A stretch of 64,000 nucleotides of DNA from Vicinamibacterales bacterium. Lineage in GTDB: Bacteria; Acidobacteriota; Vicinamibacteria; Vicinamibacterales; 2-12-FULL-66-21. This document shows, piece by piece, positions 4,190 to 60,609 of the stretch. The position numbers and the translations under genes are program-made. The stretch spans positions 151 through 64,150 of the forward strand of contig DASTVZ010000224.1 of NCBI GenBank assembly GCA_035758845.1, given 5' to 3'. The notes beneath the pieces are model-generated. The model did no database searches and was not told the DNA's origin. It saw only the letters and a program-made list of their open reading frames with translations. The stretch's first letter is position 1. Each line of letters opens with the position of its first letter.

Positions 4190-4267
4190 ATTGTTGATTG
4201 CTGATTTCTGATGGCTGATTGGTTTCTCGCTCTTCAATCAGCGATCAGCAATCGAAAATCAGCAATT
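4190..4267. repeat. inverted heptad array: about 4 GCTGATT-type units, a 13-nt loop, then about 4 AATCAGC-type units
   Basis: Read directly: attgttgattgctgatttctgatggctgattgg / tttctcgctcttc / aatcagcgatcagcaatcgaaaatcagcaatt. It fills the spacer between the patatin-like stop (4274) and the PLP-enzyme start (4174). Confidence 0.85.
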
Positions 4268-6238: not shown

Positions 6239-6271
6239 ATTGCTGAATGCTGATTGCTGAAGGCGGATTGC
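6239..6271. repeat. direct heptad array, TGCTGAW/GCGGATT units (about 4.5 copies)
   Basis: attgctgaatgctgattgctgaaggcggattgc lies between the divergent greA and trmH-like starts. Confidence 0.7.
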
Positions 6272-14510: not shown

Positions 14511-14540
14511 GAAATGCTGAATGCTGAATGCTGAATGAAA
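14511..14540. repeat. tandem GCTGAAT heptads (3 perfect copies)
   Basis: gaaatgctgaatgctgaatgctgaatgaaa starts 1 nt after the DUF1080 stop. Confidence 0.85.
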
Positions 14541-14558: not shown

Positions 14559-14638
14559 GGTTCTGCAGGGTTCTGACGCGTTCTCGAGCGAACCTCGTAG
14601 AACCCGGTAGAACCTTGCAGAACCTCGCAGAACCCGGA
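14559..14638. repeat. eight exactly 10-nt-phased units: 3 x GGTTCTNNNN facing 5 x AGAACCNNNN around a CTCGAG centre
   Basis: ggttctgcag ggttctgacg cgttctcgag cgaacctcgt agaacccggt agaaccttgc agaacctcgc agaacccgga. It abuts the ferritin stop at 14639. Confidence 0.9.
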
Positions 14639-34185: not shown

Positions 34186-35976
34186 TCAGATTCGCTGAAA
34201 GTTCTTCTCAATCTCCCGTCGCGTGATCCGCAATACGACAGGACGTCCGTGCGGACAGACGCTTGAATACGCCGTGCGACGCAGCTCCTCAAGGATGTAA
34301 CGCATCTTCTCCATCGTCAGCGGATAATTCGCCTTGACGGCAGCATGACACGCCATGGTTGCTGCGATCCGGCGCAGCGCTTCCTCGACGCGAGATCCGC
34401 GGTCGAGCCCCTCGAGATCGCTGGCCAACGCGCGGATGGCGGCCTCGCATTCACCCGGATCGAGCGCGGCGGGAAGCGCGGAGAGACGAACGCTGTCGCC
34501 GCCGAACTCCTCGATCTCGACGCCGAACTTCTCGAGCGTCGCCGCATGTGGAAGGAGCGCCTGCCGCTCAGCGGGTGAGAGCTCGATGAGAACAGGCGTC
34601 AACAGGCGCTGGCTTTCGAGCTGGCCGGACGTCAACCTCTCCATCACCTGTTCGAACAGCACGCGTTCGTGCGCCACATGTTGATCGACAATTGCAATCC
34701 CTTCATCGTCAATCGCGATGATGAACGTGTCGCGAAACTGGCCCAGGGGGATCATTGGGCGGAGGTCACCCGGTTCTACTGGGTTCTGCGTGGTCCTACC
34801 GGGTTCAGCAGGGTTCGACAGGGCGCTGCCGACAGCGTTCTCAGTTGCTGGCTCCATAAGATTGCGCCATGGCCCGAGCGGTTCGGGCGCCCACCGGTTT
34901 CCAACCGTCGCGCCGGCAAGGACACCAGGAATCGCCATCGGACGCGGCTCCAGCTGGCGCGGCGAGAACGGCGTGAATTGCAACTCAGGGGCGCGGCCTT
35001 GCCCGAGCGCTTCCGCGAGCGCGCGGCGAAGCACTTCGTGCACGAGTGACTGCTCGAGAAACCGCACTTCCGCCTTGGTCGGGTGAACGTTGACGTCGAC
35101 GCGATCGGCGGGCATGCGGATGAAGAGATGCACTTCGGGACTGCGTTCTTTGATCGTCGCCACGCTATACGCTTCCGAAATCGCGTGCGCGATCGTGCGG
35201 TCCTTGACGATGCGGCGGTTGACGAATACGTTTTGCGCGCCGCGCACCGGCCCCTGATCGCCGAGCGCCGCGACGTACCCGTGAATCTGCAGCCCGGCGG
35301 CCTCTTTGCGGACTTCGATCAAGTCGAGGCGCTCGCCAAACAGCTGATAGAAGCGGTCGCCCAGACCGTTGGCTGGCGGGCACTCGAGCAGCTTTCGTCC
35401 GCCGCTGGTGAGCGAGAAGCCAACCTCGGGATACCCGAGGGCCATCTGCGTCACGAGGCGGGAGATCTGCGCGGATTCGGCGCTATCCGACTTCAGGAAC
35501 TTGCGCCGCGCCGGCAGGTTGTAGAACAGATCCGCGACCTCGATCGAGGTGCCTTCGGGGACGCCGACTTCGCGCTGCGAGGCAACCGTGCCGCCATTGA
35601 CGCGTATCTCGGTGCCTGACGCGCTGCCGCGCGCGCGTGTGCGCAACTGGAAATGCGACACCGACGCGATACTCGGCAGGGCTTCGCCTCTGAATCCCAA
35701 CGTGAGAATGGCGCCGAGATCTTCCGGCGTCGCAATTTTGCTCGTCGCGTGACGCTCGATCGCGAGCCGCGCGTCCTCCGGATCCATCCCCTCTCCATCG
35801 TCCTCGACGCGAAGCAGCTTCTTGCCGCCGAGCTCGATGGTGATCACGATGCGCGTCGCCTGCGCATCGAGCGAGTTCTCGATCAGTTCCTTGACCACCG
35901 AAGCCGGACGCTCGACGACTTCGCCGGCGGCGATTTGATTGGCGAGGCGGAGGGGAAGACGATGAATGCGAGGCAT
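34186..35976 (-). CDS. mutL: DNA mismatch repair protein MutL
   Basis: IAAGEVVERPASVVKELIENSLDA ATPase motif and a C-terminal endonuclease/dimerisation region. Confidence 0.95.
   Translation of the reverse strand: MPRIHRLPLRLANQIAAGEVVERPASVVKELIENSLDAQATRIVITIELGGKKLLRVEDDGEGMDPEDARLAIERHATSKIATPEDLGAILTLGFRGEALPSIASVSHFQLRTRARGSASGTEIRVNGGTVASQREVGVPEGTSIEVADLFYNLPARRKFLKSDSAESAQISRLVTQMALGYPEVGFSLTSGGRKLLECPPANGLGDRFYQLFGERLDLIEVRKEAAGLQIHGYVAALGDQGPVRGAQNVFVNRRIVKDRTIAHAISEAYSVATIKERSPEVHLFIRMPADRVDVNVHPTKAEVRFLEQSLVHEVLRRALAEALGQGRAPELQFTPFSPRQLEPRPMAIPGVLAGATVGNRWAPEPLGPWRNLMEPATENAVGSALSNPAEPGRTTQNPVEPGDLRPMIPLGQFRDTFIIAIDDEGIAIVDQHVAHERVLFEQVMERLTSGQLESQRLLTPVLIELSPAERQALLPHAATLEKFGVEIEEFGGDSVRLSALPAALDPGECEAAIRALASDLEGLDRGSRVEEALRRIAATMACHAAVKANYPLTMEKMRYILEELRRTAYSSVCPHGRPVVLRITRREIEKNFQRI
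34771..34830. repeat. five to six GGTTCTNNNN decamer units inside the mutL CDS
   Basis: cggttctact gggttctgcg tggtcctacc gggttcagca gggttcgaca gggcgctgcc. Same unit, phase and orientation as the left arm at 14559. Confidence 0.8.
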
Positions 35977-35978
35977 CT

Positions 35979-36183
35979 CGATTGCCGATTGTTGATTGGT
36001 GAATGCCGATTTGTCGATTGCTGATTGTCAATTGGTCATTGACGATCGCTGACTGGCGATTGGTGATTGGCGATTGGTGATTGCCGACGGGTGTTCGAGT
36101 ATGACCAGGAGGTAAACACAATCGTCACTCCACAATCGTCAATCCAAACTCCGCAATCTACAATCCGCAATCCGCAATCGTCA
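35979..36183. repeat. large inverted heptad array: about 16 GATTGNN units, a 28-nt loop, then about 9.5 CAATCNN units
   Basis: Left arm 35979-36088, loop 36089-36116, right arm 36117-36183. It occupies the whole corA-mutL spacer and touches both the corA stop and the mutL ATG. Confidence 0.9.
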
Positions 36184-37146
36184 TATCCAGCCTTTCTTCC
36201 GAAAGAACCCGAGCATCGCCGCCGACAGGGCGAGCATGATGCCGCAGACCCACCAGAACTGCGCGTGTTCGCCGCCGGGCAAATGCGGCAACGGCACGTT
36301 CATGCCGTACATGCCGGTCAGGACGGTCAGCGGCATGAACAGCGTTGCGATGATCGTGAGCACCTTCATCACCTGATTGAGCTGGTTCGATACCGCAGAC
36401 AGGTGGGCGTCGAGGATACTCGTGATGCGATCCTGAAAAAACATCGCCTCGTCCGACAGCCTCACCAGGTGGTCATGCACATCGCGAAAACCGTACGCGA
36501 GCTGTTCGGTGATCAACGGGAATTCGCGGCGCGCCAGCCGGCCGACGACGTCGCGTTGCGGCAGCACGGTTTGGCGCAACGACGAAATGTCTTTCTTGAA
36601 ATTCAGAATCCGGCGTGCCAGCTGCGTGTTCGGGTGCTCGAACACTTCCTTTTCGAGTTTGTCGAGCTTCTCAGACAACTTGTCGACTTCGGGCCGGTAG
36701 TTGTCCACCATCGTGTCGACGATCCGGTAGAGCAACATGCCGGGCCCTTCGCCAAGCATGCGGGAGTCACGGCTGCACACCACGCCCACTTTGCCGATTG
36801 ACCGTGAGACACCGGGATGCACGGTCACCAGGAATTGTGAACCGAGAAAAAAATCGACGTCCTTGGTGGTGAAGCGATGTTCGGACGCATGAAAATCGAT
36901 TCCGTGCAGAATTACGTACAGGTAGTCGCCGTAGGACTCGATTTTCGGGTGATGCAGCTCGCTGAGAGCGTCTTCAATCGCAAGCTGATGAAAATGAAAG
37001 GTGTCGCTGAGGACTTTTGTTTCGTCAGGAGTCGGTCGATCGAGATCGACCCAGACACATATGCCGCTGCCAGGCTTGATCCAGGCGGGGTCCACGCGAT
37101 CGACGAGCTGAGTGGACCCGCCCTCGTGCTTGTAGATCCTGATCAA
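36181..37146 (-). CDS. corA: magnesium/cobalt transporter CorA
   Basis: YGMNV (GMN) motif plus two C-terminal TM helices. TTG 37146 overlaps the ppdK stop (TTGA). Confidence 0.85.
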
Positions 37147-39974
37147 TCCCCGACCTTGGAGGTGAGCGCCGCCTGTGCCGCCGCGAGCCGGGCAACCGGC
37201 ACGCGGTACGGCGAACAGCTCACGTAATCGAGACCAACCTTCTCGAAGAACTGAATCGACGACGGGTCGCCGCCGTGCTCGCCGCAAATCCCGAGCTTCA
37301 GGTTTGCGCGCGCGCCACGCCCCTTCTTCACCGCGATGTCGACGAGCTGTCCGACCCCGGTCGCATCGATCGTCGCGAACGGGTTCTTCTTGACGATCTC
37401 GAGCTCCTGATACTGCGGCAGGAACGAGCCCGAGTCGTCGCGCGACATGCCGAGCCCAGTCTGCGTCAGGTCGTTGGTGCCGAAGCTGAAAAACTCGGCC
37501 GACTGCGCGATCTCGTCCGCGGTGAGCGCGCCACGCGGGATCTCAATCATCGTGCCCACCATGTAGGAGAGCTTCCTCTTCTGCTCCGCCTCGACCTCGC
37601 GTGCCGCCTGGTGGACGACTTCGATTTGGAGATCGAGTTCCTTCTTGAACCCGACGAGCGGGATCATGATCTCCGGGCGCGCTTTGATCCCTTTTTTCTC
37701 GACGATCGCCGCAGCCTCGAAGACGGCGCGCGCCTGCATCGCCGAAATCTCGGGGTAGCCGATACCAAGACGGCAGCCGCGGAATCCGAGCATCGGGTTG
37801 AACTCGTGCAACTGCTCGACGCGCTGGTGAATGCGCGCGGCCGGCACCCCGATTTTTCTGGCCAGCTCCTCCTGCTGTTCCTTCGTGTGCGGCAGGAACT
37901 CGTGGAGCGGTGGGTCGAGGAAACGAATGGTCGCCGGGTATCCGTTCAGCGCCTTGAAGATGCCGACGAAGTCCTCGCGCTGGTAGGGCAGAAGCTTGGC
38001 CAGCGCAGCCTTTCGCTCCTCGACCGTTTCCGCCAGGATCATCTCGCGCATCGCGTCGATGCGGTCCCCTTCGAAGAACATGTGCTCGGTGCGGGTCAGG
38101 CCGATACCAACCGCGCCGAACGCAACGGCGTTGGCCGTCTGTTCCGGCGTGTCGGCGTTGGTGCGGACGACCATGCGTGTCGCATCCGAGCACCACTTCA
38201 TCAGCTGCTGGAAGTTCTTGAACTTCTCCGTCTTCCTGGCCGCCTCGTCGCCGTCGATCAGCCCGGCGACGATTTCCGACGGCGCCGTTTTCACCTGGCC
38301 GGCGTAGACCTTGCCGACCGTACCGTCGATCGACATCCAGTCCCCTTCCTTGAACGTCTTCCTCTCGACTGTGACGGTGCGCGCCTGATAGTCGACCTCG
38401 AGCGCGGATGCGCCACACACACAAACCTTGCCCATCTGCCTCGCGACGAGCGCGGCGTGCGACGACACGCCGCCCCGCGCGGTGAGGATGCCTTCAGCCG
38501 CGATCATCCCGCGCAGATCTTCAGGGGACGTCTCAACCCGTACGAGCAGCACCTTTTCATTCTTGTCGGCGGCGGCAACGGCGCGCTCGGCGTTGAGATA
38601 GATCTTGCCGGATGCCGCGCCAGGCCCCGCGGGCAATCCCGTCGCGATCGCCTTGGCTTTCGCCACTTCGCCAACATCGAAGACTGGAGCGAGCAGTTGC
38701 TCGAGCTGGTCGGCCGGGTTGCGCAGGATCGCGGTCTTCCAGTCGATCAATTTTTCCTTATACATGTCGATCGAGAATTTCAGCGCCGCCATCGCGGTTC
38801 GTTTGCCGTTGCGCGTCTGCAGCATGTAGACGACGCCGTCCTCGATGGTGAATTCGAAGTCCTGCACGTCCTTGAAATGCTTCTCGAGCGTCTGACGAAT
38901 GCGCTCGAGCTCGGCATACGCCTTGGGCAGTTCCTTCTTCAGTTGCGCCACCGGCTCCGGTGTCCGCACGCCCGCGACGACATCCTCTCCCTGCGCGTTG
39001 ATGAGGAACTCGCCGTAGAACTCCTTCTCGCCGTTGGCCGGGTTGCGGGTGAACGCAACGCCCGATCCCGATTGATCGCCGGTGTTGCCGTAGACCATGG
39101 CCTGGACGTTGACGGCGGTGCCCCACTCAGTCGGGATGTTGTACTTGCGGCGATAGACGATCGCTCGATCGTTCATCCATGACCCGAATACCGCACCGAC
39201 CGCACCCATCAGTTGATCCCAGGGTGAATCGGGGAACTGTTTGCCGACGCGCTCCTTCACCAGCCCCTTGAAACGGACAACGAGCTCCTTCAGGTCGTCG
39301 ACCGTGAGCTTCGTGTCTTCGATGTGCTGGTGGTGACGCTCGCTCTTGAGCGCTTCGATCACCGTCTCGAACGGTTCGTGGTCCTCGTCGGCGCGCTTCT
39401 GCACGCCGAGGACGACGTCGCCGTACATCTGGACGAAGCGACGATAGCAGTCCCAGGCGAACCGCGGGTTGTTGGTCTTCCTCGATAGCGCCTCGACGGT
39501 CTGATCGTTGAGACCGAGATTGAGGATCGTGTCCATCATCCCAGGCATCGAGTCGCGCGCGCCCGAGCGCACCGACACGAGCAAAGGATTTTTCAAATCA
39601 CCGAACGTCTTGCCTGTCTGCTGCTCGATCGAGGCAATGCCCGTTTCCATTTGCTTGCGCAACGCCGGCGGGTAGCTTCGTTTGTTCGCGTAATAGTAGG
39701 TGCAGACTTCGGTAGTAATCGTGAACCCTGGCGGCACCGGTAGACCGATGCGGCACATCTCGGCCAGATTCGCCCCCTTGCCCCCGAGCAGCGGCTTCAT
39801 CGAGCCGTTTCCGTCGGTCTTGCGGCCGAACAAGTACACGTACTTCGCGCTCGTGGCACCCTTGGCACCCGTACCAGCCTTCGCCGTTCGTGACTTGGTC
39901 GCGGTGCGCAGTGCCACTGCGCTCTTCGCGCCCTTGGTGTTCGCCGTCTTCGTCCGTCCAAGCGTCTTCGCCAT
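37143..39974 (-). CDS. ppdK: pyruvate, phosphate dikinase
   Basis: KYVYLFG ... [10 protein letters not shown], catalytic-His region [15 protein letters not shown], and a C-terminal PEP-utilising domain. Confidence 0.95.
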
Positions 39975-42184: not shown

Positions 42185-42264
42185 TCCAAATCAACAATCC
42201 ACAATCACAATCGCCCAATCGACATTCAAAAAAATCAGCAATCAGCAATCCGCAATCAACAATT

Positions 42265-42267
<3 letters not shown>
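42185..42267. repeat. single-orientation heptad array, AATCNNC units (about 11 copies) with a central A7 run
   Basis: tccaaatcaacaatccacaatcacaatcgcccaatcgacattcaaaaaaatcagcaatcagcaatccgcaatcaacaatttca fills the glyQ-glyS spacer. Confidence 0.85.
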
Positions 42268-43139
<872 letters not shown>

Positions 43140-43143
<4 letters not shown>

Positions 43144-52247: not shown

Positions 52248-52771
52248 GATCGCTCGATCAATCCCGCACGAAGGCCGCCGCGGCGGCGGAGTCGTGTTTC
52301 GACGCGGCGCATGCGCCCGGCGTCCTCCTGATTGTGGTGATCGTACCCGAGCAGGTGCAGCAAGCCATGAAGCGCAAGCACGCGCAACTCGGCCTGGTAC
52401 GAGTGGCCGGCGTCCCTCGCCTGCTTCCTGGCAGTGCCGGTGGCAATGACGATATCGCCAAGGAAACCTGTCGGGATCCGTTGTCCGGGATCCGGGATCC
52501 GGGATCCGGGATCAACCGGAAACGATAAGACGTCGGTCGGCCGATTTTTCCGGCGGTACTGTGAATTGAGTGTCTGGCTGTGGGCATCGGTGACGAGCGC
52601 GATCGCTACCTCGCCGCGTGCGACAGATGGCGCGATCGAGGCGAGCCACTGCGAGAGCCCGCCGTCGCGGACCGATCGTCCGCGACCGTCAGTCACGCTG
52701 ACATGCAAGCGTCGACCGCGCCGGTTCTCGGCGCCACCCGGCTGGCGCCGGACTTTACTGTCGGGATCCAC
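52244..52771 (-). CDS. ybeY: rRNA maturation endoribonuclease YbeY
   Basis: [11 protein letters not shown] zinc motif and DVLSFP. GTG 52771 is the first start after the phoH region and overlaps phoH by 17 nt. Confidence 0.85.
52471..52512. repeat. CCGGGAT heptads inside the ybeY CDS: 4 perfect tandem copies (52485-52512) plus 2 degenerate units
   Basis: tcgggatccgttgtccgggatccgggatccgggatccgggat. Contains four GGATCC cores. 42 nt equals 14 codons. Confidence 0.9.
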
Positions 52772-57595: not shown

Positions 57596-57610
57596 CTAAC
57601 AATGATACTT

Positions 57611-57660
57611 CGCGATTCGCGCGTTAGCGATTCGCGCGTTAGCGATTCGCGCGAATCGCG
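57611..57660. repeat. 15-nt unit cgattcgcgcgttag x2 running into an 18-bp perfect palindrome gcgattcgcgcgaatcgc
   Basis: Units at 57613-57627 and 57628-57642. Palindrome at 57642-57659. Confidence 0.85.
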
Positions 57661-57709
57661 TATCGGGATCCGGTGTGCGGGATCCGTAGTCCGGATCCCG
57701 GATCCCGAC
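57661..57709. repeat. GGATCC-core heptad array in inverted arrangement (cgggatccg ... cggatcccg)
   Basis: tatcgggatccggtgtgcgggatccgtagtccggatcccggatcccgac. Four GGATCC cores in 40 nt. Same family as the ybeY insert. Confidence 0.8.
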
Positions 57710-59450: not shown

Positions 59451-60473
59451 ATGCCGCTTCTCGATCGTTTTAGCCGTCCGTTGCGGAGCCTCCGCATTTC
59501 GGTGACCGATCGCTGTAACCTGCGATGTCAGTACTGCATGCCGGAGCCGGACTATCTCTGGCTGCCCCGCGAAAGCCTGCTGACATTCGAAGAAACTGCC
59601 GCGATCGTTGACGCGTTCACGCCGCTTGGCGTCGATCGGGTGCGGATCACTGGCGGCGAACCGCTTCTCCGCCGCGATCTGCCGGTGCTTATCGAGTCAT
59701 TGGCGGCGAAGCCGGCAATCGCTGATCTTGCGATGACCACCAACGGGGTTCTGCTCGCGGCGAATGCATCGCGACTGCGCACCGCCGGACTGCACCGAGT
59801 GACCGTCAGTCTTGACACGCTCGACCGCGAGCGCTTCCGCGCGCTGACGCGGATGGATGATTTGCACGAGGTGCTCGACGGCATCGCTGCTGCCGCGGCC
59901 GCGGGATTTACGTCGCTCAAGCTCGACACCGTGGTGATCCGCGGCGTCAATGACGATGAACTGGTGGCGCTCGTCGAATATGCGAAGAGTGTGAATTCCG
60001 AACTCCGATTCATCGAGTACATGGATGTTGGCGGGGCAACGCGCTGGACACCTTCTGCGGTTGTGTCGAGGCGCGAGATCCTCGATCGATTGCGCGCACA
60101 CTACGGGGGTGTCATGCCGATTGCGGAACAGTCGTCAGCCCCCGCGGATCGATTCCTGCTGCCTGACGGGACGACGTTCGGAATCATTTCGTCGACGACC
60201 GAGCCGTTCTGTGCATCGTGCGATCGTAGCCGCCTCACCGCGGACGGTGTCTGGCTTCTTTGCCTCTATGCAGCCACCGGCACGGACCTTCGTCGCCCGC
60301 TACGCGCAGGGGCTAGCCGCGAGGATCTTCAGCGGTTGATCGAAGCTGTATGGTCGGTTCGTGCCGACCGCGGTGCCGAAGAGCGTCTCGGGATGGATCG
60401 CGAAACGACGCTTATCCCCGTCCGGACGCTTAAGAAAGACGCTCACCTCGAAATGCATACCCGCGGCGGCTGA
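59451..60473 (+). CDS. moaA: GTP 3',8-cyclase MoaA (radical SAM)
   Basis: Start ATG 59451 (MPLLDRFSRP). CNLRCQYC radical-SAM cluster and C-terminal CASCDRSRLTADG. Confidence 0.9.
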   Translation: MPLLDRFSRPLRSLRISVTDRCNLRCQYCMPEPDYLWLPRESLLTFEETAAIVDAFTPLGVDRVRITGGEPLLRRDLPVLIESLAAKPAIADLAMTTNGVLLAANASRLRTAGLHRVTVSLDTLDRERFRALTRMDDLHEVLDGIAAAAAAGFTSLKLDTVVIRGVNDDELVALVEYAKSVNSELRFIEYMDVGGATRWTPSAVVSRREILDRLRAHYGGVMPIAEQSSAPADRFLLPDGTTFGIISSTTEPFCASCDRSRLTADGVWLLCLYAATGTDLRRPLRAGASREDLQRLIEAVWSVRADRGAEERLGMDRETTLIPVRTLKKDAHLEMHTRGG

Positions 60474-60609
60474 TTGCGGATTGCGGAGTGGCGATTGCCG
60501 ATTTCTTGATTGGCGATTGCGGATTGAGATTGCCCATCTCAATCGACAATCTCAATCGACAATCGACAATCTGAAAATCCGCAATCTACAGTCCGAAATC
60601 GGCAATCAG
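60471..60609. repeat. inverted heptad array: about 8.5 GATTGCN units, a 5-nt loop, then about 10.5 CAATCNN units
   Basis: The array starts with the moaA TGA (tgattgcggattgcgg...). Its centre is a perfect 9-bp stem, gattgagat-tgccc-atctcaatc (60522-60544). It ends 2 nt before the sigma ORF. Confidence 0.9.

What the first reader, a model, noticed from the sequence alone, without database searches (positions are those of the whole stretch)
35977..36183. The entire 204-bp corA-mutL spacer is one giant heptad hairpin
About 16 GATTGNN heptads (35979-36088) face about 9.5 CAATCNN heptads (36117-36183) across a 28-nt loop (gggtgttcgagtatgaccaggaggtaaa). The right arm overlaps the corA stop codon. 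The left arm ends 2 nt from the mutL ATG, so mutL has no room for a conventional promoter or Shine-Dalgarno sequence. Any register shifted by 7 nt still pairs the GATT/AATC cores, which makes this a slippery stem that can adopt several registers. This is the largest instance of the family. It sits inside what otherwise looks like a ppdK-corA-mutL co-directional unit.
Basis: seen in the sequence. Interest (0 to 1): 0.72.

Follow-up and report, generated by a model that had tools for sequence, protein, structure and literature searches.

The report
Seven-base repeat hairpin between corA and mutL
The 204-base gap between two genes of a soil acidobacterium is filled by two opposed runs of a 7-base repeat that can fold into a long, loose hairpin. 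It is real, but it is one example of a class of 7-base simple repeats that are common between genes across this bacterial order, resemble repeats already described in Xanthomonas and Haemophilus, and have no demonstrated function.

Summary
Window 35979-36088 carries about 15.5 GATTGNN units and 36117-36183 about 10 CAATCNN units, separated by a 28-nt loop. Together they fill the corA-stop to mutL-ATG spacer. The arrays are far beyond chance: 38 pattern hits against 0.22 expected, and fold z-scores of -2.9 to -4.3. The arms pair in at least 13 registers, each 7 nt apart.

The window comes from a Vicinamibacterales (Acidobacteriota) genome. Across the window plus 160 related loci (1.44 Mb), period-7 arrays make up about 3.5% of intergenic DNA, use dozens of different units, and often occur as inverted pairs. 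The same corA-mutL junction is 0-14 nt long in about 40% of relatives. In others it carries heptad or octad hairpins with other cores (GACTG, CACGT, AATGC, GGAAC, GGAAAT). Relatives with 85-90% MutL identity have shorter GATTG|CAATC hairpins, and the closest relatives (93%) have none.

I found no terminator, no Rfam match, no strand bias and no excess of the motif outside arrays.

Best reading: this is a lineage-specific expansion of a heptanucleotide simple-sequence repeat, generated at the DNA level. Any effect on mutL expression is unproven. It is a new member of a known kind (Xanthomonas inverted heptamers, the H. influenzae hmw hairpin). The conserved 5-nt core next to 2 variable positions remains unexplained.

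The parts
36117..36183 (.). Right arm: about 10 CAATCNN units on the + strand. On the corA/mutL sense (minus) strand this is the 5' arm, GAUUGNN, and it starts 1 nt after the corA stop codon.
36089..36116 (.). Non-repetitive 28-nt loop. It contains AGGAGG on + (CCUCCU on the sense RNA). This is not conserved in the loops of relatives.
35979..36088 (.). Left arm: about 15.5 GATTGNN units on the + strand. On the sense RNA this is the 3' arm, NNCAAUC, and it ends 3 nt before the mutL AUG. The roughly 6 surplus units form local hairpins in the predicted fold.
36181..37287 (-). corA (Mg2+ transporter); stop codon at 36181-36183. The longest ORF is listed. My codon-based call puts the start at 37146, abutting ppdK.
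34186..35976 (-). mutL (596 aa). The N-terminus aligns from residue 1 with relatives.
37143..39974 (-). ppdK, the upstream member of the conserved glyS-ppdK-corA-mutL gene order.
4190..4266 (.). Smaller hairpin of the same kind (ATTGCTG x4.6 | CAATCAG x4.6), filling a spacer between co-directional minus-strand genes.
60472..60607 (.). Second-largest hairpin (GATTGCC x9 | CAATCGA x9.7), between co-directional plus-strand genes.
42185..42314 (.). Single-arm CAATCNN arrays. They start right at the glyS start codon (42184) and run across the spacer into the 3' end of the upstream ORF (42265-43143). There is no opposing arm.
6239..6271 (.). Short single-arm ATTGCTG/AATGCTG array in a divergent spacer.
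14513..14537 (.). AATGCTG x3.6, 2 nt after a + strand stop codon. It is followed at about 14560-14634 by a GGTTCTG | GAACCTCGCA inverted array.

Best explanation
The spacer is a lineage-specific expansion of an intergenic heptanucleotide simple-sequence repeat, in inverted-pair form. The ancestral corA-mutL junction was a few nucleotides long, with mutL read without a Shine-Dalgarno sequence, probably by coupling to corA or by SD-independent initiation.

Inferred mechanism: in this clade a GATTGNN unit and its complement were seeded on either side of the junction, either from a small palindrome or by a strand-switch inverted duplication. Each arm then grew and was homogenised independently by slipped-strand mispairing during replication. 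Loops of 7 nt are poorly seen by MutS-type repair.

The result is a 204-nt imperfect palindrome. As DNA or as part of the corA-mutL transcript, it can fold into a long hairpin of 5-bp core helices separated by 2x2 mismatches, in many registers.

What is shown: the repeats, the pairing, the order-wide abundance of such arrays, and their fast gain, loss and resizing. What is inferred: the slippage origin, and that any effect on mutL (processing of the hairpin, or weakened coupling to corA) is a by-product rather than the reason the element exists.
For: Period 7 dominates intergenic tandem repeats in 1.44 Mb of Vicinamibacterales DNA. At TRF score >=45 there are 99 arrays (4959 nt, 3.5% of intergenic bases), against 20 for period 8 and 5 or fewer for any other period (first pass). 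Units differ between loci, and within one genome.

The same junction carries GACTG, CACGT, AATGC, GGAAC, GGAAAT and other arrays in other species, and is 0-14 nt long in about 40% of them. Size changes fast between near relatives. L008 and L009 are 92.6% identical in mutL DNA, with spacers of 235 and 38 nt. L012 and L017 are 94.9% identical, with spacers of 213 and 25 nt.

GATTG|CAATC hairpins of 81-84 nt (L087/88, L089, L091), and arrays showing only the CAATC arm (L083 truncated at a contig end, L085, L086), sit at the same junction in relatives with 85-90% MutL identity. L083 and L086 end in the same CAATCGAG-ATG as the window. The 93% relatives lack the arrays.

The NN positions differ between the two arms and no register is privileged, so each arm was homogenised on its own.

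There is no sign of strand-specific function. Sense and antisense folds are equally stable in 29 co-directional hairpins (12 vs 17, p=0.92). Single arrays show no strand composition bias. The GATTG/CAATC motif is not over-represented outside arrays (157 observed vs 156+-12 expected). There is no intrinsic terminator and no Rfam family match.

Precedent from the literature: heptamers are the most over-represented long simple repeats in many bacteria, and polymerase slippage has been proposed as the cause (Mrazek 2007, as summarised in PMC4679880). Xanthomonas has 70-75 convergent inverted heptamer pairs between aligned ORFs, with length and sequence variation between species (PMC4692102).
Against: The arrays are degenerate (66-76% matches). 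Pairs of contigs that are at least 99.6% identical, or identical across the junction, show no copy-number change (L021/L105 measured; L087/L088 and L001/L081/L094 read). So they are not hypermutable on short time scales.

Variation is concentrated in 1-3 positions, usually adjacent, while a 4-5-nt core stays intact. This holds in 27 of 44 arrays at p<0.05; in the window's left arm, core mismatch is 0-19% against 44-50% at the two flanking positions. Uniform neutral decay does not predict this pattern.

Both arms keep complementary cores in genomes whose flanking genes are only about 80% identical in DNA. This suggests a constraint on pairing or on the motif.

I have no RNA data and no same-species population data.
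Confidence: 0.6

Rival explanations
1. Functional RNA hairpin in the corA-mutL transcript. The imperfect long stem would be a substrate for a double-strand RNase such as RNase III, or a 3'-end protector for corA. Its length would set how much mutL is translated, either by exposing the AUG when a ribosome terminates at the corA stop at the base of the stem, or by processing. Copy number would then tune MutL level.
For: The stem base places the corA stop (1 nt before the stem) and the mutL AUG (3 nt after it) side by side. Predicted RNA folds are stable. 39 of 60 array-bearing spacers fold with at least 15 long-range pairs. The cores of both arms stay complementary across deep divergence. An experimental precedent exists: the H. 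influenzae hmw 5'-UTR (ATCTTTC)n heptamer forms a 122-nt imperfect hairpin cut by RNase III, and expression depends on repeat number (PMC12721329). Most Xanthomonas heptamer arrays are transcribed.
Against: The plus (antisense) strand folds better than the sense strand here (-88.8 vs -80.6). Across 29 co-directional hairpins there is no sense-strand advantage. Many relatives have single-arm arrays or no spacer at all at the same junction. Hairpin form is no commoner in co-directional spacers than in convergent ones (29/44 vs 8/12). The NN positions are not complementary, which weakens the stem.
Confidence: 0.2
2. Phased binding array. A clade-specific DNA- or RNA-binding protein recognises the 5-nt core every 7 nt (comparable to TRAP or HutP on phased triplets). 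Selection for binding would then preserve the core while the 2 spacer bases drift.
For: The core-plus-variable-dinucleotide architecture is general (27/44 arrays; 11 of the 13 arrays with exactly two variable positions have them adjacent). Unit types are clade-specific. MacGregor proposed a similar idea for TAACTGA repeats (PMC4679880).
Against: Several unrelated units coexist in one genome. The window alone has GATTG, GAATG, GGATC, GAACC and TGGCTGC. The motif is not enriched outside arrays. There is no orientation rule relative to genes. No candidate protein was identified. The same architecture appears inside the mutL coding linker.
Confidence: 0.1
3. Intrinsic or bidirectional transcription terminator separating corA from mutL.
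For: The array starts right after the stop codon. Arrays are most frequent in convergent spacers (14/106) and least frequent in divergent ones (4/88). Some relatives have a plain GC-rich hairpin at this junction (L001, L004, L082).
Against: No T/U tract follows the stem; GAG-AUG of mutL follows directly. The terminator scan finds nothing in the spacer. mutL would be left without an evident promoter; the only match is a weak 9/12 one inside the arm. The 0-14-nt junction in many relatives indicates co-transcription.
Confidence: 0.04
4. Mobile element (MITE, REP/BIME-like) or an assembly artefact.
For: It is dispersed, intergenic and palindromic. Short-read contigs break inside such arrays (L083, L084, L075).
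Against: Copies are not alignable as whole elements. They are arrays with variable unit number and no fixed ends, terminal inverted repeats or target duplications. The units are imperfect, so assembly is unambiguous, and the same structures occur in long-read MAGs (MFD contigs).
Confidence: 0.02

Closest known systems
Xanthomonas GGGAATC / (GGGANTN)n intergenic heptamer repeats (Rehm et al. 2015, PMC4692102)
   Same: Heterogeneous heptamers with conserved core positions. Strong intergenic bias. 70-75 cases of two arrays in convergent orientation that can form stem-loops. They are located between aligned ORFs close to stop and start codons and are under-represented between divergent ORFs. Length and sequence vary between related species. 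Function is unknown.
   Different: The Xanthomonas unit is G-tract-rich and forms G-quadruplexes, and four units are preferred. GATTGNN has no G tract, and the arms here have about 15.5 and 10 units. This genome and its relatives use many different units, whereas Xanthomonas has one dominant unit. The phylum is different.
H. influenzae hmw1A 5'-UTR (ATCTTTC)n repeat hairpin processed by RNase III (Rapun-Araiz et al. 2025, PMC12721329)
   Same: A heptamer repeat lies immediately upstream of a gene. It is transcribed and forms a long imperfect hairpin of about 120 nt with mismatches. Repeat number modulates downstream expression.
   Different: There, only the left arm is repetitive, and it pairs with a unique G-rich arm. 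The repeats are perfect and phase-variable, and the gene is a surface adhesin with its own promoter. Here both arms are degenerate repeats inside an operon junction. No RNA or RNase III data exist for this case.
Long simple sequence repeats of prokaryotes, heptanucleotide class (Mrazek, Guo & Shah 2007; read only through its summary in PMC4679880)
   Same: Tandem units of 5-11 nt, longer than chance allows. Heptamers are the most abundant class, and slippage tied to the polymerase footprint was proposed as the cause.
   Different: As summarised, that survey does not describe inverted pairs, a core-plus-variable-dinucleotide architecture, or Acidobacteria. The original paper was not available to me.
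TAACTGA repeats of marine Beggiatoaceae, Cyanobacteria and Bacteroidetes (MacGregor 2015, PMC4679880)
   Same: Heptamer arrays that end within a few nt of start codons lacking a Shine-Dalgarno sequence. A role in translation was suggested but not shown.
   Different: Those are almost all direct repeats (169 direct sets against one inverted) of 2-6 copies of one exact unit, with a strong forward-orientation rule. Here the arrays are long, degenerate and often inverted, and follow no orientation rule.
Cyanobacterial STRR heptamers (from my own knowledge, Mazel et al. 1990; cited indirectly as the Calothrix PCC7601 heptanucleotides)
   Same: Several different tandem heptanucleotide families in the intergenic DNA of one genome.
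   Different: The sequences and the phylum differ. I did not test this comparison further.

Membership tests
Prokaryotic long simple sequence repeat (heptanucleotide class) | Head-to-tail tandem iterations of a 5-11-nt unit | tested here: met
   TRF period 7, 15.4 copies at 35979-36087, plus about 10 copies at 36117-36189.
Prokaryotic long simple sequence repeat (heptanucleotide class) | Longer than expected by chance in that genome | tested here: met
   38 pattern hits against 0.22 expected; 0 of 100 shuffles reach that count.
Prokaryotic long simple sequence repeat (heptanucleotide class) | Copy number differs between related genomes | tested here: met
   The spacer at the same junction ranges from 0 to 273 nt. 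Sister pairs have 235 vs 38 nt and 213 vs 25 nt. No same-species data were available.
Xanthomonas-type inverted heptamer pairs | Two arrays of the same unit in convergent orientation on opposite strands, close together, between aligned ORFs | tested here: met
   GATTGNN and CAATCNN arms are 28 nt apart, between co-directional corA and mutL.
Xanthomonas-type inverted heptamer pairs | Heterogeneous units with a conserved core | tested here: met
   Core positions are 83-97% conserved, although units were picked by a <=1-mismatch match to that core; positions 6-7 are near-random. The unbiased permutation test gives p=0.002 and 0.024 for the two arms.
Xanthomonas-type inverted heptamer pairs | G-tract unit able to form a G-quadruplex, with a preference for four units | tested here: not met
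   GATTGNN has no GGG tract, and the arms have about 15.5 and 10 units. Separate CGGGATC arrays in the window (52472-52513) do fit this feature.
hmw-type repeat hairpin regulated by RNase III | Heptamer repeat upstream of a gene that folds into a long imperfect RNA hairpin | tested here: met
   Prediction only: -80.6 kcal/mol on the sense strand, z -2.9.
hmw-type repeat hairpin regulated by RNase III | Transcribed, cleaved by RNase III, with expression dependent on repeat number | not testable with these tools
   No transcriptome or genetics are available for this uncultured lineage.
Intrinsic terminator | GC-rich stem followed by a U tract | tested here: not met
   The scan finds no terminator-like site within 35977-36183. 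The stem is followed by GAG-AUG.
REP/BIME or MITE | Dispersed copies alignable over a fixed-length element; for MITEs, terminal inverted repeats and target duplications | tested here: not met
   The window's copies differ in unit number, unit variants and length (77-204 nt) and have no fixed ends.
Any Rfam RNA family | Score at or above the gathering threshold | tested here: not met
   No hit in the window at gathering threshold. The only hit in the permissive scan is sR35 at 13.9 bits against a threshold of 60.

The most novel reading that the evidence does not exclude
The heptad arrays may be more than passive microsatellites around mutL. A copy-number-variable hairpin gates mutL translation from the corA transcript. 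In addition, non-triplet (7-, 8- and 10-nt) repeat arrays make up the MutL inter-domain linker, where a change of one unit would shift the reading frame. Together these could form a heritable, reversible mutation-rate switch in Vicinamibacterales: the repair gene would be controlled by the very class of repeats whose loops it cannot correct. A related variant is that the conserved 5-nt core at 7-nt phasing reflects an unknown factor that binds or generates the repeats.
Probability: 0.08. Interest if true: 0.8.

Novelty: new member of a known kind. Interest (0 to 1): 0.4.

Why it matters
Heptamers have been known since 2007 to be the favoured long simple repeat of many bacteria, but why this is so, and what the inverted pairs do, is still open. 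Vicinamibacterales are abundant soil bacteria that are almost never cultured. In them, one conserved gene junction (corA-mutL) has been filled again and again by 7-nt repeat hairpins with different sequences. That gives a natural replicate series for asking whether the 7-nt period, the conserved core and the inverted arrangement come from the replication machinery or from selection. The location next to, and inside, a mismatch-repair gene would matter if the repeats alter MutL supply. On a practical level, these arrays break short-read assemblies and can mislead gene callers.

Tried and rejected
- Rfam at gathering threshold on the whole window, and at permissive threshold on the spacer: nothing usable.
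- Intrinsic terminator and sigma-70 promoter scan: no terminator. The only promoter-like site is a 9/12 match (TCGACA-18-AACAAT, minus strand, 36017->35988) built from the repeat itself.
- Exact-protein look-up of MutL to find same-species contigs for length polymorphism: not on record. The metagenome scan gave nothing closer than 93%.
- Sense-versus-antisense folding test for RNA-level selection: no difference.
- Strand composition and orientation rule for single arrays: none.
- Chi-like or uptake-sequence-like genome-wide enrichment of GATTG: none.
- Hot-spot test for the corA-mutL junction: 26% of junctions carry arrays, against 16% (glyS-ppdK), 14% (mutL-next) and 5% (ppdK-corA). This is higher but not decisive, and the samples are phylogenetically non-independent.
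- Homology between the window's GATTG array and the GACTG arrays of the L008 clade: rejected, because the arms are in the opposite order.
- The AGGAGG / anti-SD-like sequence in the loop: not conserved in relatives' loops, so treated as chance.
- Mrazek 2007 could not be read directly.
- Four literature searches found nothing relevant; three of them targeted Acidobacteria or Vicinamibacter repeats and turned up no prior description.

Full report
**1. What is in the sequence**

Reading window 35700-36500 shows, on the + strand, c-GATTGCC-GATTGTT-GATTGGT-GAATGCC-GATTTGTC-GATTGCT-GATTGTC-AATTGGTC-ATTGAC-GATCGCT-GACTGGC-GATTGGT-GATTGGC-GATTGGT-GATTGCC-GAC at 35979-36088. A non-repetitive 28-nt stretch follows at 36089-36116. 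Then comes CA-CAATCGT-CACTCCA-CAATCGT-CAATCCA-AACTCCG-CAATCTA-CAATCCG-CAATCCG-CAATCGT-CA at 36117-36183.

Tandem Repeats Finder gives period 7 with 15.4 copies for the left arm. Its period-14 and period-21 readings score higher, which means blocks of two or three units were duplicated. The right arm has about 10 heptads.

The flanking ORFs on the minus strand are mutL (34186-35976) and corA (stop at 36181-36183), with ppdK and glyS further upstream (Pfam). The array begins 1 nt after the corA stop codon and ends 3 nt before the mutL ATG.

The pattern is far beyond chance. GATTGNNGATTGNNGATTG with up to 2 mismatches hits 38 times in the window against 0.22 expected.

Predicted folds are more stable than dinucleotide shuffles on both strands and with DNA parameters (z -2.9, -4.3 and -3.6). 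The minimum-energy structure accounts for well under 1% of the ensemble. Sliding one arm against the other gives 48-65% complementarity at every 7-nt offset, about 22% in between, and no privileged register.

**2. Where it comes from and what its relatives look like**

MutL recovers 80 genome loci and 80 metagenome loci. Nearly all genome records are titled Vicinamibacterales, Vicinamibacteria or Acidobacteriota MAGs from soil, and the best match is 93% amino-acid identity. The glyS-ppdK-corA-mutL order is conserved in most of them.

The corA-mutL junction varies widely in length and content.
- In about 40% of loci it is 0-14 nt long or overlapping.
- The nearest relatives (L001/L081/L094, 93%) have a 43-nt spacer with a plain GC hairpin.
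- L002 and L003 (91% and 90%) have 9-10 nt.
- Relatives at 85-90% carry the same GATTG|CAATC type in the same place. L087/88, L089 and L091 have hairpins of 81-84 nt with about 4+4 units in the same arm order. L083 (truncated at a contig end), L085 (127 nt) and L086 show mainly the CAATC arm. L083 and L086 end in the same CAATCGAG-ATG as the window.

Other lineages carry different repeats at the same junction:
- CAGTCGG|CGACTGA (L008, 235 nt; L012, 213 nt).
- GCACGTN (L006, L007).
- AATGCCA|TGGCATT (L021) and AATGCTG|CAGCATT (L096).
- GGTTCCN|GGAACCN (L109, 273 nt; L042).
- Period-8 GGAAATNT|ANATTTCC (L134, L139).
- GGGAGAA|TTCTCCC (L118), CAACTAC x9 (L123), and GCCYTGA x14 (L084).

A rough MutL tree places the GATTG-bearing genomes across one clade that also contains genomes without the array. 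Sister genomes differ greatly: L008 and L009 are 92.6% identical in mutL DNA with spacers of 235 and 38 nt, and L012 and L017 are 94.9% identical with 213 and 25 nt. Contig pairs that are at least 99.6% identical, or identical across the junction, show no change. Turnover is therefore fast between species, but not of the contingency-locus kind.

**3. It is one case of an order-wide habit**

The window plus 160 loci total 1.44 Mb, of which 142 kb is intergenic by my codon-usage gene calls. At TRF score >=45, period-7 arrays account for 99 intergenic arrays (4959 nt, 3.5% of intergenic DNA). Period 8 has 20 arrays, and every other period has 5 or fewer (first pass).

Arrays occur in 49 of 585 co-directional spacers, 14 of 106 convergent spacers and 4 of 88 divergent spacers. 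Of 60 array-bearing spacers, 39 fold with at least 15 long-range pairs. They typically start within a few nt of the upstream stop codon, and many spacers consist almost entirely of array.

Within the window the units include GATTGNN, GAATGCT, CGGGATC, TGGCTGC and a 10-nt GAACCNNGNA. In the window's clade GATTGCT/AATGCTG is the commonest unit, and it also appears in other spacers.

**4. Tests for function**

- No intrinsic terminator was found, and only a weak promoter-like match made of repeat units.
- There is no Rfam family match.
- If the sense-strand RNA hairpin were selected, G-U pairs should make the sense strand fold better. In 29 co-directional hairpins they do not (12 vs 17, p=0.92), and at this locus the antisense strand folds better.
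- Single arrays show no strand composition bias.
- GATTG/CAATC is not enriched outside arrays (157 vs 156+-12), which rules out a Chi-like or uptake-sequence-like explanation.
- The absence of a Shine-Dalgarno sequence before mutL is ancestral and unremarkable here. Only 9% of mutL genes have an SD-like 4-mer upstream, which equals background, and only 26% of all predicted genes do.
- The corA-mutL junction carries arrays somewhat more often (26%) than neighbouring junctions (5-16%). The samples are not independent, so I do not claim a hot spot.

**5. What does not fit plain neutrality**

Variation within arrays is not uniform. A 4-5-nt core is kept while 1-3 positions, usually adjacent, vary. 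This holds in 27 of 44 arrays at p<0.05 by within-unit permutation, and 11 of the 13 arrays with exactly two variable positions have them adjacent (window profile). The caveat is that my greedy segmentation may push indels to unit borders.

The two arms use different NN sets (left mostly CC/GT/GC/CT, right CG/TG/AC). So they were homogenised separately. Even so, their cores stay complementary in genomes whose flanking genes are only about 80% identical in DNA. Rehm et al. saw the same kind of core conservation in Xanthomonas. I cannot explain this with the data in hand. Candidate explanations are selection for pairing in any register, a factor that recognises the core, or a bias in how new units are made.

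**6. Most likely mechanism**

Shown: the element is a tandem heptanucleotide repeat in inverted-pair form, it belongs to a very abundant class in this order, and it is gained, lost and resized quickly at a junction that was ancestrally a few nt long.

Inferred: both arms were seeded from a small palindrome or by a strand-switch inverted duplication, and each arm then grew by slipped-strand mispairing. The 7-nt preference follows the polymerase-footprint idea of Mrazek et al. as summarised in PMC4679880. From general knowledge of MutS, 7-nt loops largely escape mismatch repair.

The hairpin probably forms in the corA-mutL transcript. It may affect how much mutL is made, either through processing, as shown for the H. 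influenzae hmw heptamer hairpin and RNase III (PMC12721329), or by changing coupling to corA. Nothing here shows that it does. I put 0.6 on the passive-repeat reading, 0.2 on a functional RNA hairpin, 0.1 on a phased binding array, and the remainder on the terminator, mobile-element and artefact readings.

**7. Comparison with what is known, and novelty**

The closest described system is the Xanthomonas GGGAATC-type heptamer. It is intergenic, has a heterogeneous unit with a conserved core, includes 70-75 convergent inverted pairs, lies between aligned ORFs near stop and start codons, is depleted between divergent ORFs, varies between species, and has unknown function (PMC4692102). The present element shares all of these features but lacks the G-tract and quadruplex feature and the four-unit preference. 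It works like that class but does not belong to that sequence family.

TAACTGA repeats (PMC4679880) share the position next to SD-less start codons but are short, exact and direct. Geobacter has four-unit GGGACCG elements (PMC2700814).

The three literature searches that targeted Acidobacteria or Vicinamibacter repeats found no description of such repeats there. I therefore rate this as a new member of a known kind. Interest is moderate: the individual hairpin is ordinary for its genome, but the repeated filling of one conserved junction with different units is a useful natural experiment.

**8. Side observation that may be worth more than the finding**

The inter-domain linker of MutL in these genomes is itself built from nucleotide-level repeats of period 7, 8 or 10, including inverted arrays inside the ORF. 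Details are in the noticed-in-passing list.

Noticed in passing
window 34768-34823 (mutL codons ~385-405); loci L021 7085-7165, L037 7092-7204, L018 7146-7211, L130 2270-2480, L138 1819-1955, L112 1597-1711, L117 1246-1363, L014 7090-7167 and many others: The disordered linker between the MutL ATPase and dimerisation domains is made of non-triplet DNA repeats. The window's clade uses period 10 (GAACCNNGNA), giving NPxEPGxTxQ-like peptides. Other lineages use period 7 (GGATCCG, GGATGCG, AGCACCC, ATCCCTG and others) or period 8. Some are inverted arrays inside the ORF (L130/131, L138). L145 differs from L130 by exactly 21 nt (three units, 7 aa). A change of one unit would frameshift mutL, so this is a potential on/off switch for mismatch repair. 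I found no frameshifted allele that I could trust.
   Followed up: partly
L084 3902-3995 and 5803-5847: In one 91% relative, mutL is flanked by inverted arrays of the same unit: GCCYTGA x14 upstream and GGCTCAA x6.5 downstream, about 1.8 kb apart. The downstream array runs into the contig end. Inverted repeats that bracket a whole repair gene could in principle mediate its inversion.
   Followed up: no
L001 5973-5992, L004 5952-5971, L081 1874-1893 and 3705-3724, L082 698-717, L094 3973-3992, L021 11028-11047, L120 3126-3145, L126 3435-3454: A small GC-rich palindrome, CTTCCGCC-N4-GGCGGAAG, with variable loops recurs in 8 loci. It occurs at the corA-mutL junction of the nearest relatives, after mutL, and even inside the mutL linker (L120/L126). 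It looks like a REP-like dispersed hairpin. It is absent from the window.
   Followed up: partly
window 52472-52513 and 57660-57707: The window holds CGGGATC / GGGATCC heptad arrays, five G3 tracts at 7-nt spacing in the first. This is the GGGNATC type reported to form G-quadruplexes in Xanthomonas and Nostoc. The same unit occurs in the mutL linker of L037 and L130.
   Followed up: no
window 57609-57653: A perfect 15-nt tandem repeat GCGATTCGCGCGTTA x2.8 (100% matches), next to TCGCGA palindromes, between minus-strand genes.
   Followed up: no
window 14560-14634: An inverted array with a 10-nt unit (GGTTCTGNNG | GAACCTCGCA x4.5) sits in a convergent spacer. The same GAACC unit builds the window's mutL linker repeats.
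   Followed up: partly
window 36103-36112: The hairpin loop contains CCAGGAGGTA on the + strand, i.e. UACCUCCUGG (anti-Shine-Dalgarno-like) on the corA/mutL sense RNA. No start codon follows on the + strand, and the loops of related hairpins (L087, L089, L091) lack it, so it is probably chance.
   Followed up: yes
L083 1-69, L075 1-97, L084 5803-5847: Short-read contigs begin or end inside heptad arrays. These repeats therefore fragment assemblies of this order, and their abundance is probably underestimated in MAGs.
   Followed up: no
L111 3874-4000, L134, L139 3460-3540, L138 677-740, L127, L114, L122 3886-4000: One sub-lineage uses period-8 units (GGAAATNT | ANATTTCC, GATTTGGT | AAATCACC, GGGNAATC | CGATTNCC) at the same corA-mutL junction. 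The preferred period is therefore not strictly 7 across the order.
   Followed up: partly
window and all loci, gene starts: Only about 26% of predicted genes have an SD-like 4-mer at -18..-4, against 9% in a within-gene control. Shine-Dalgarno-independent initiation seems common in Vicinamibacterales. My start-codon calls are approximate.
   Followed up: partly
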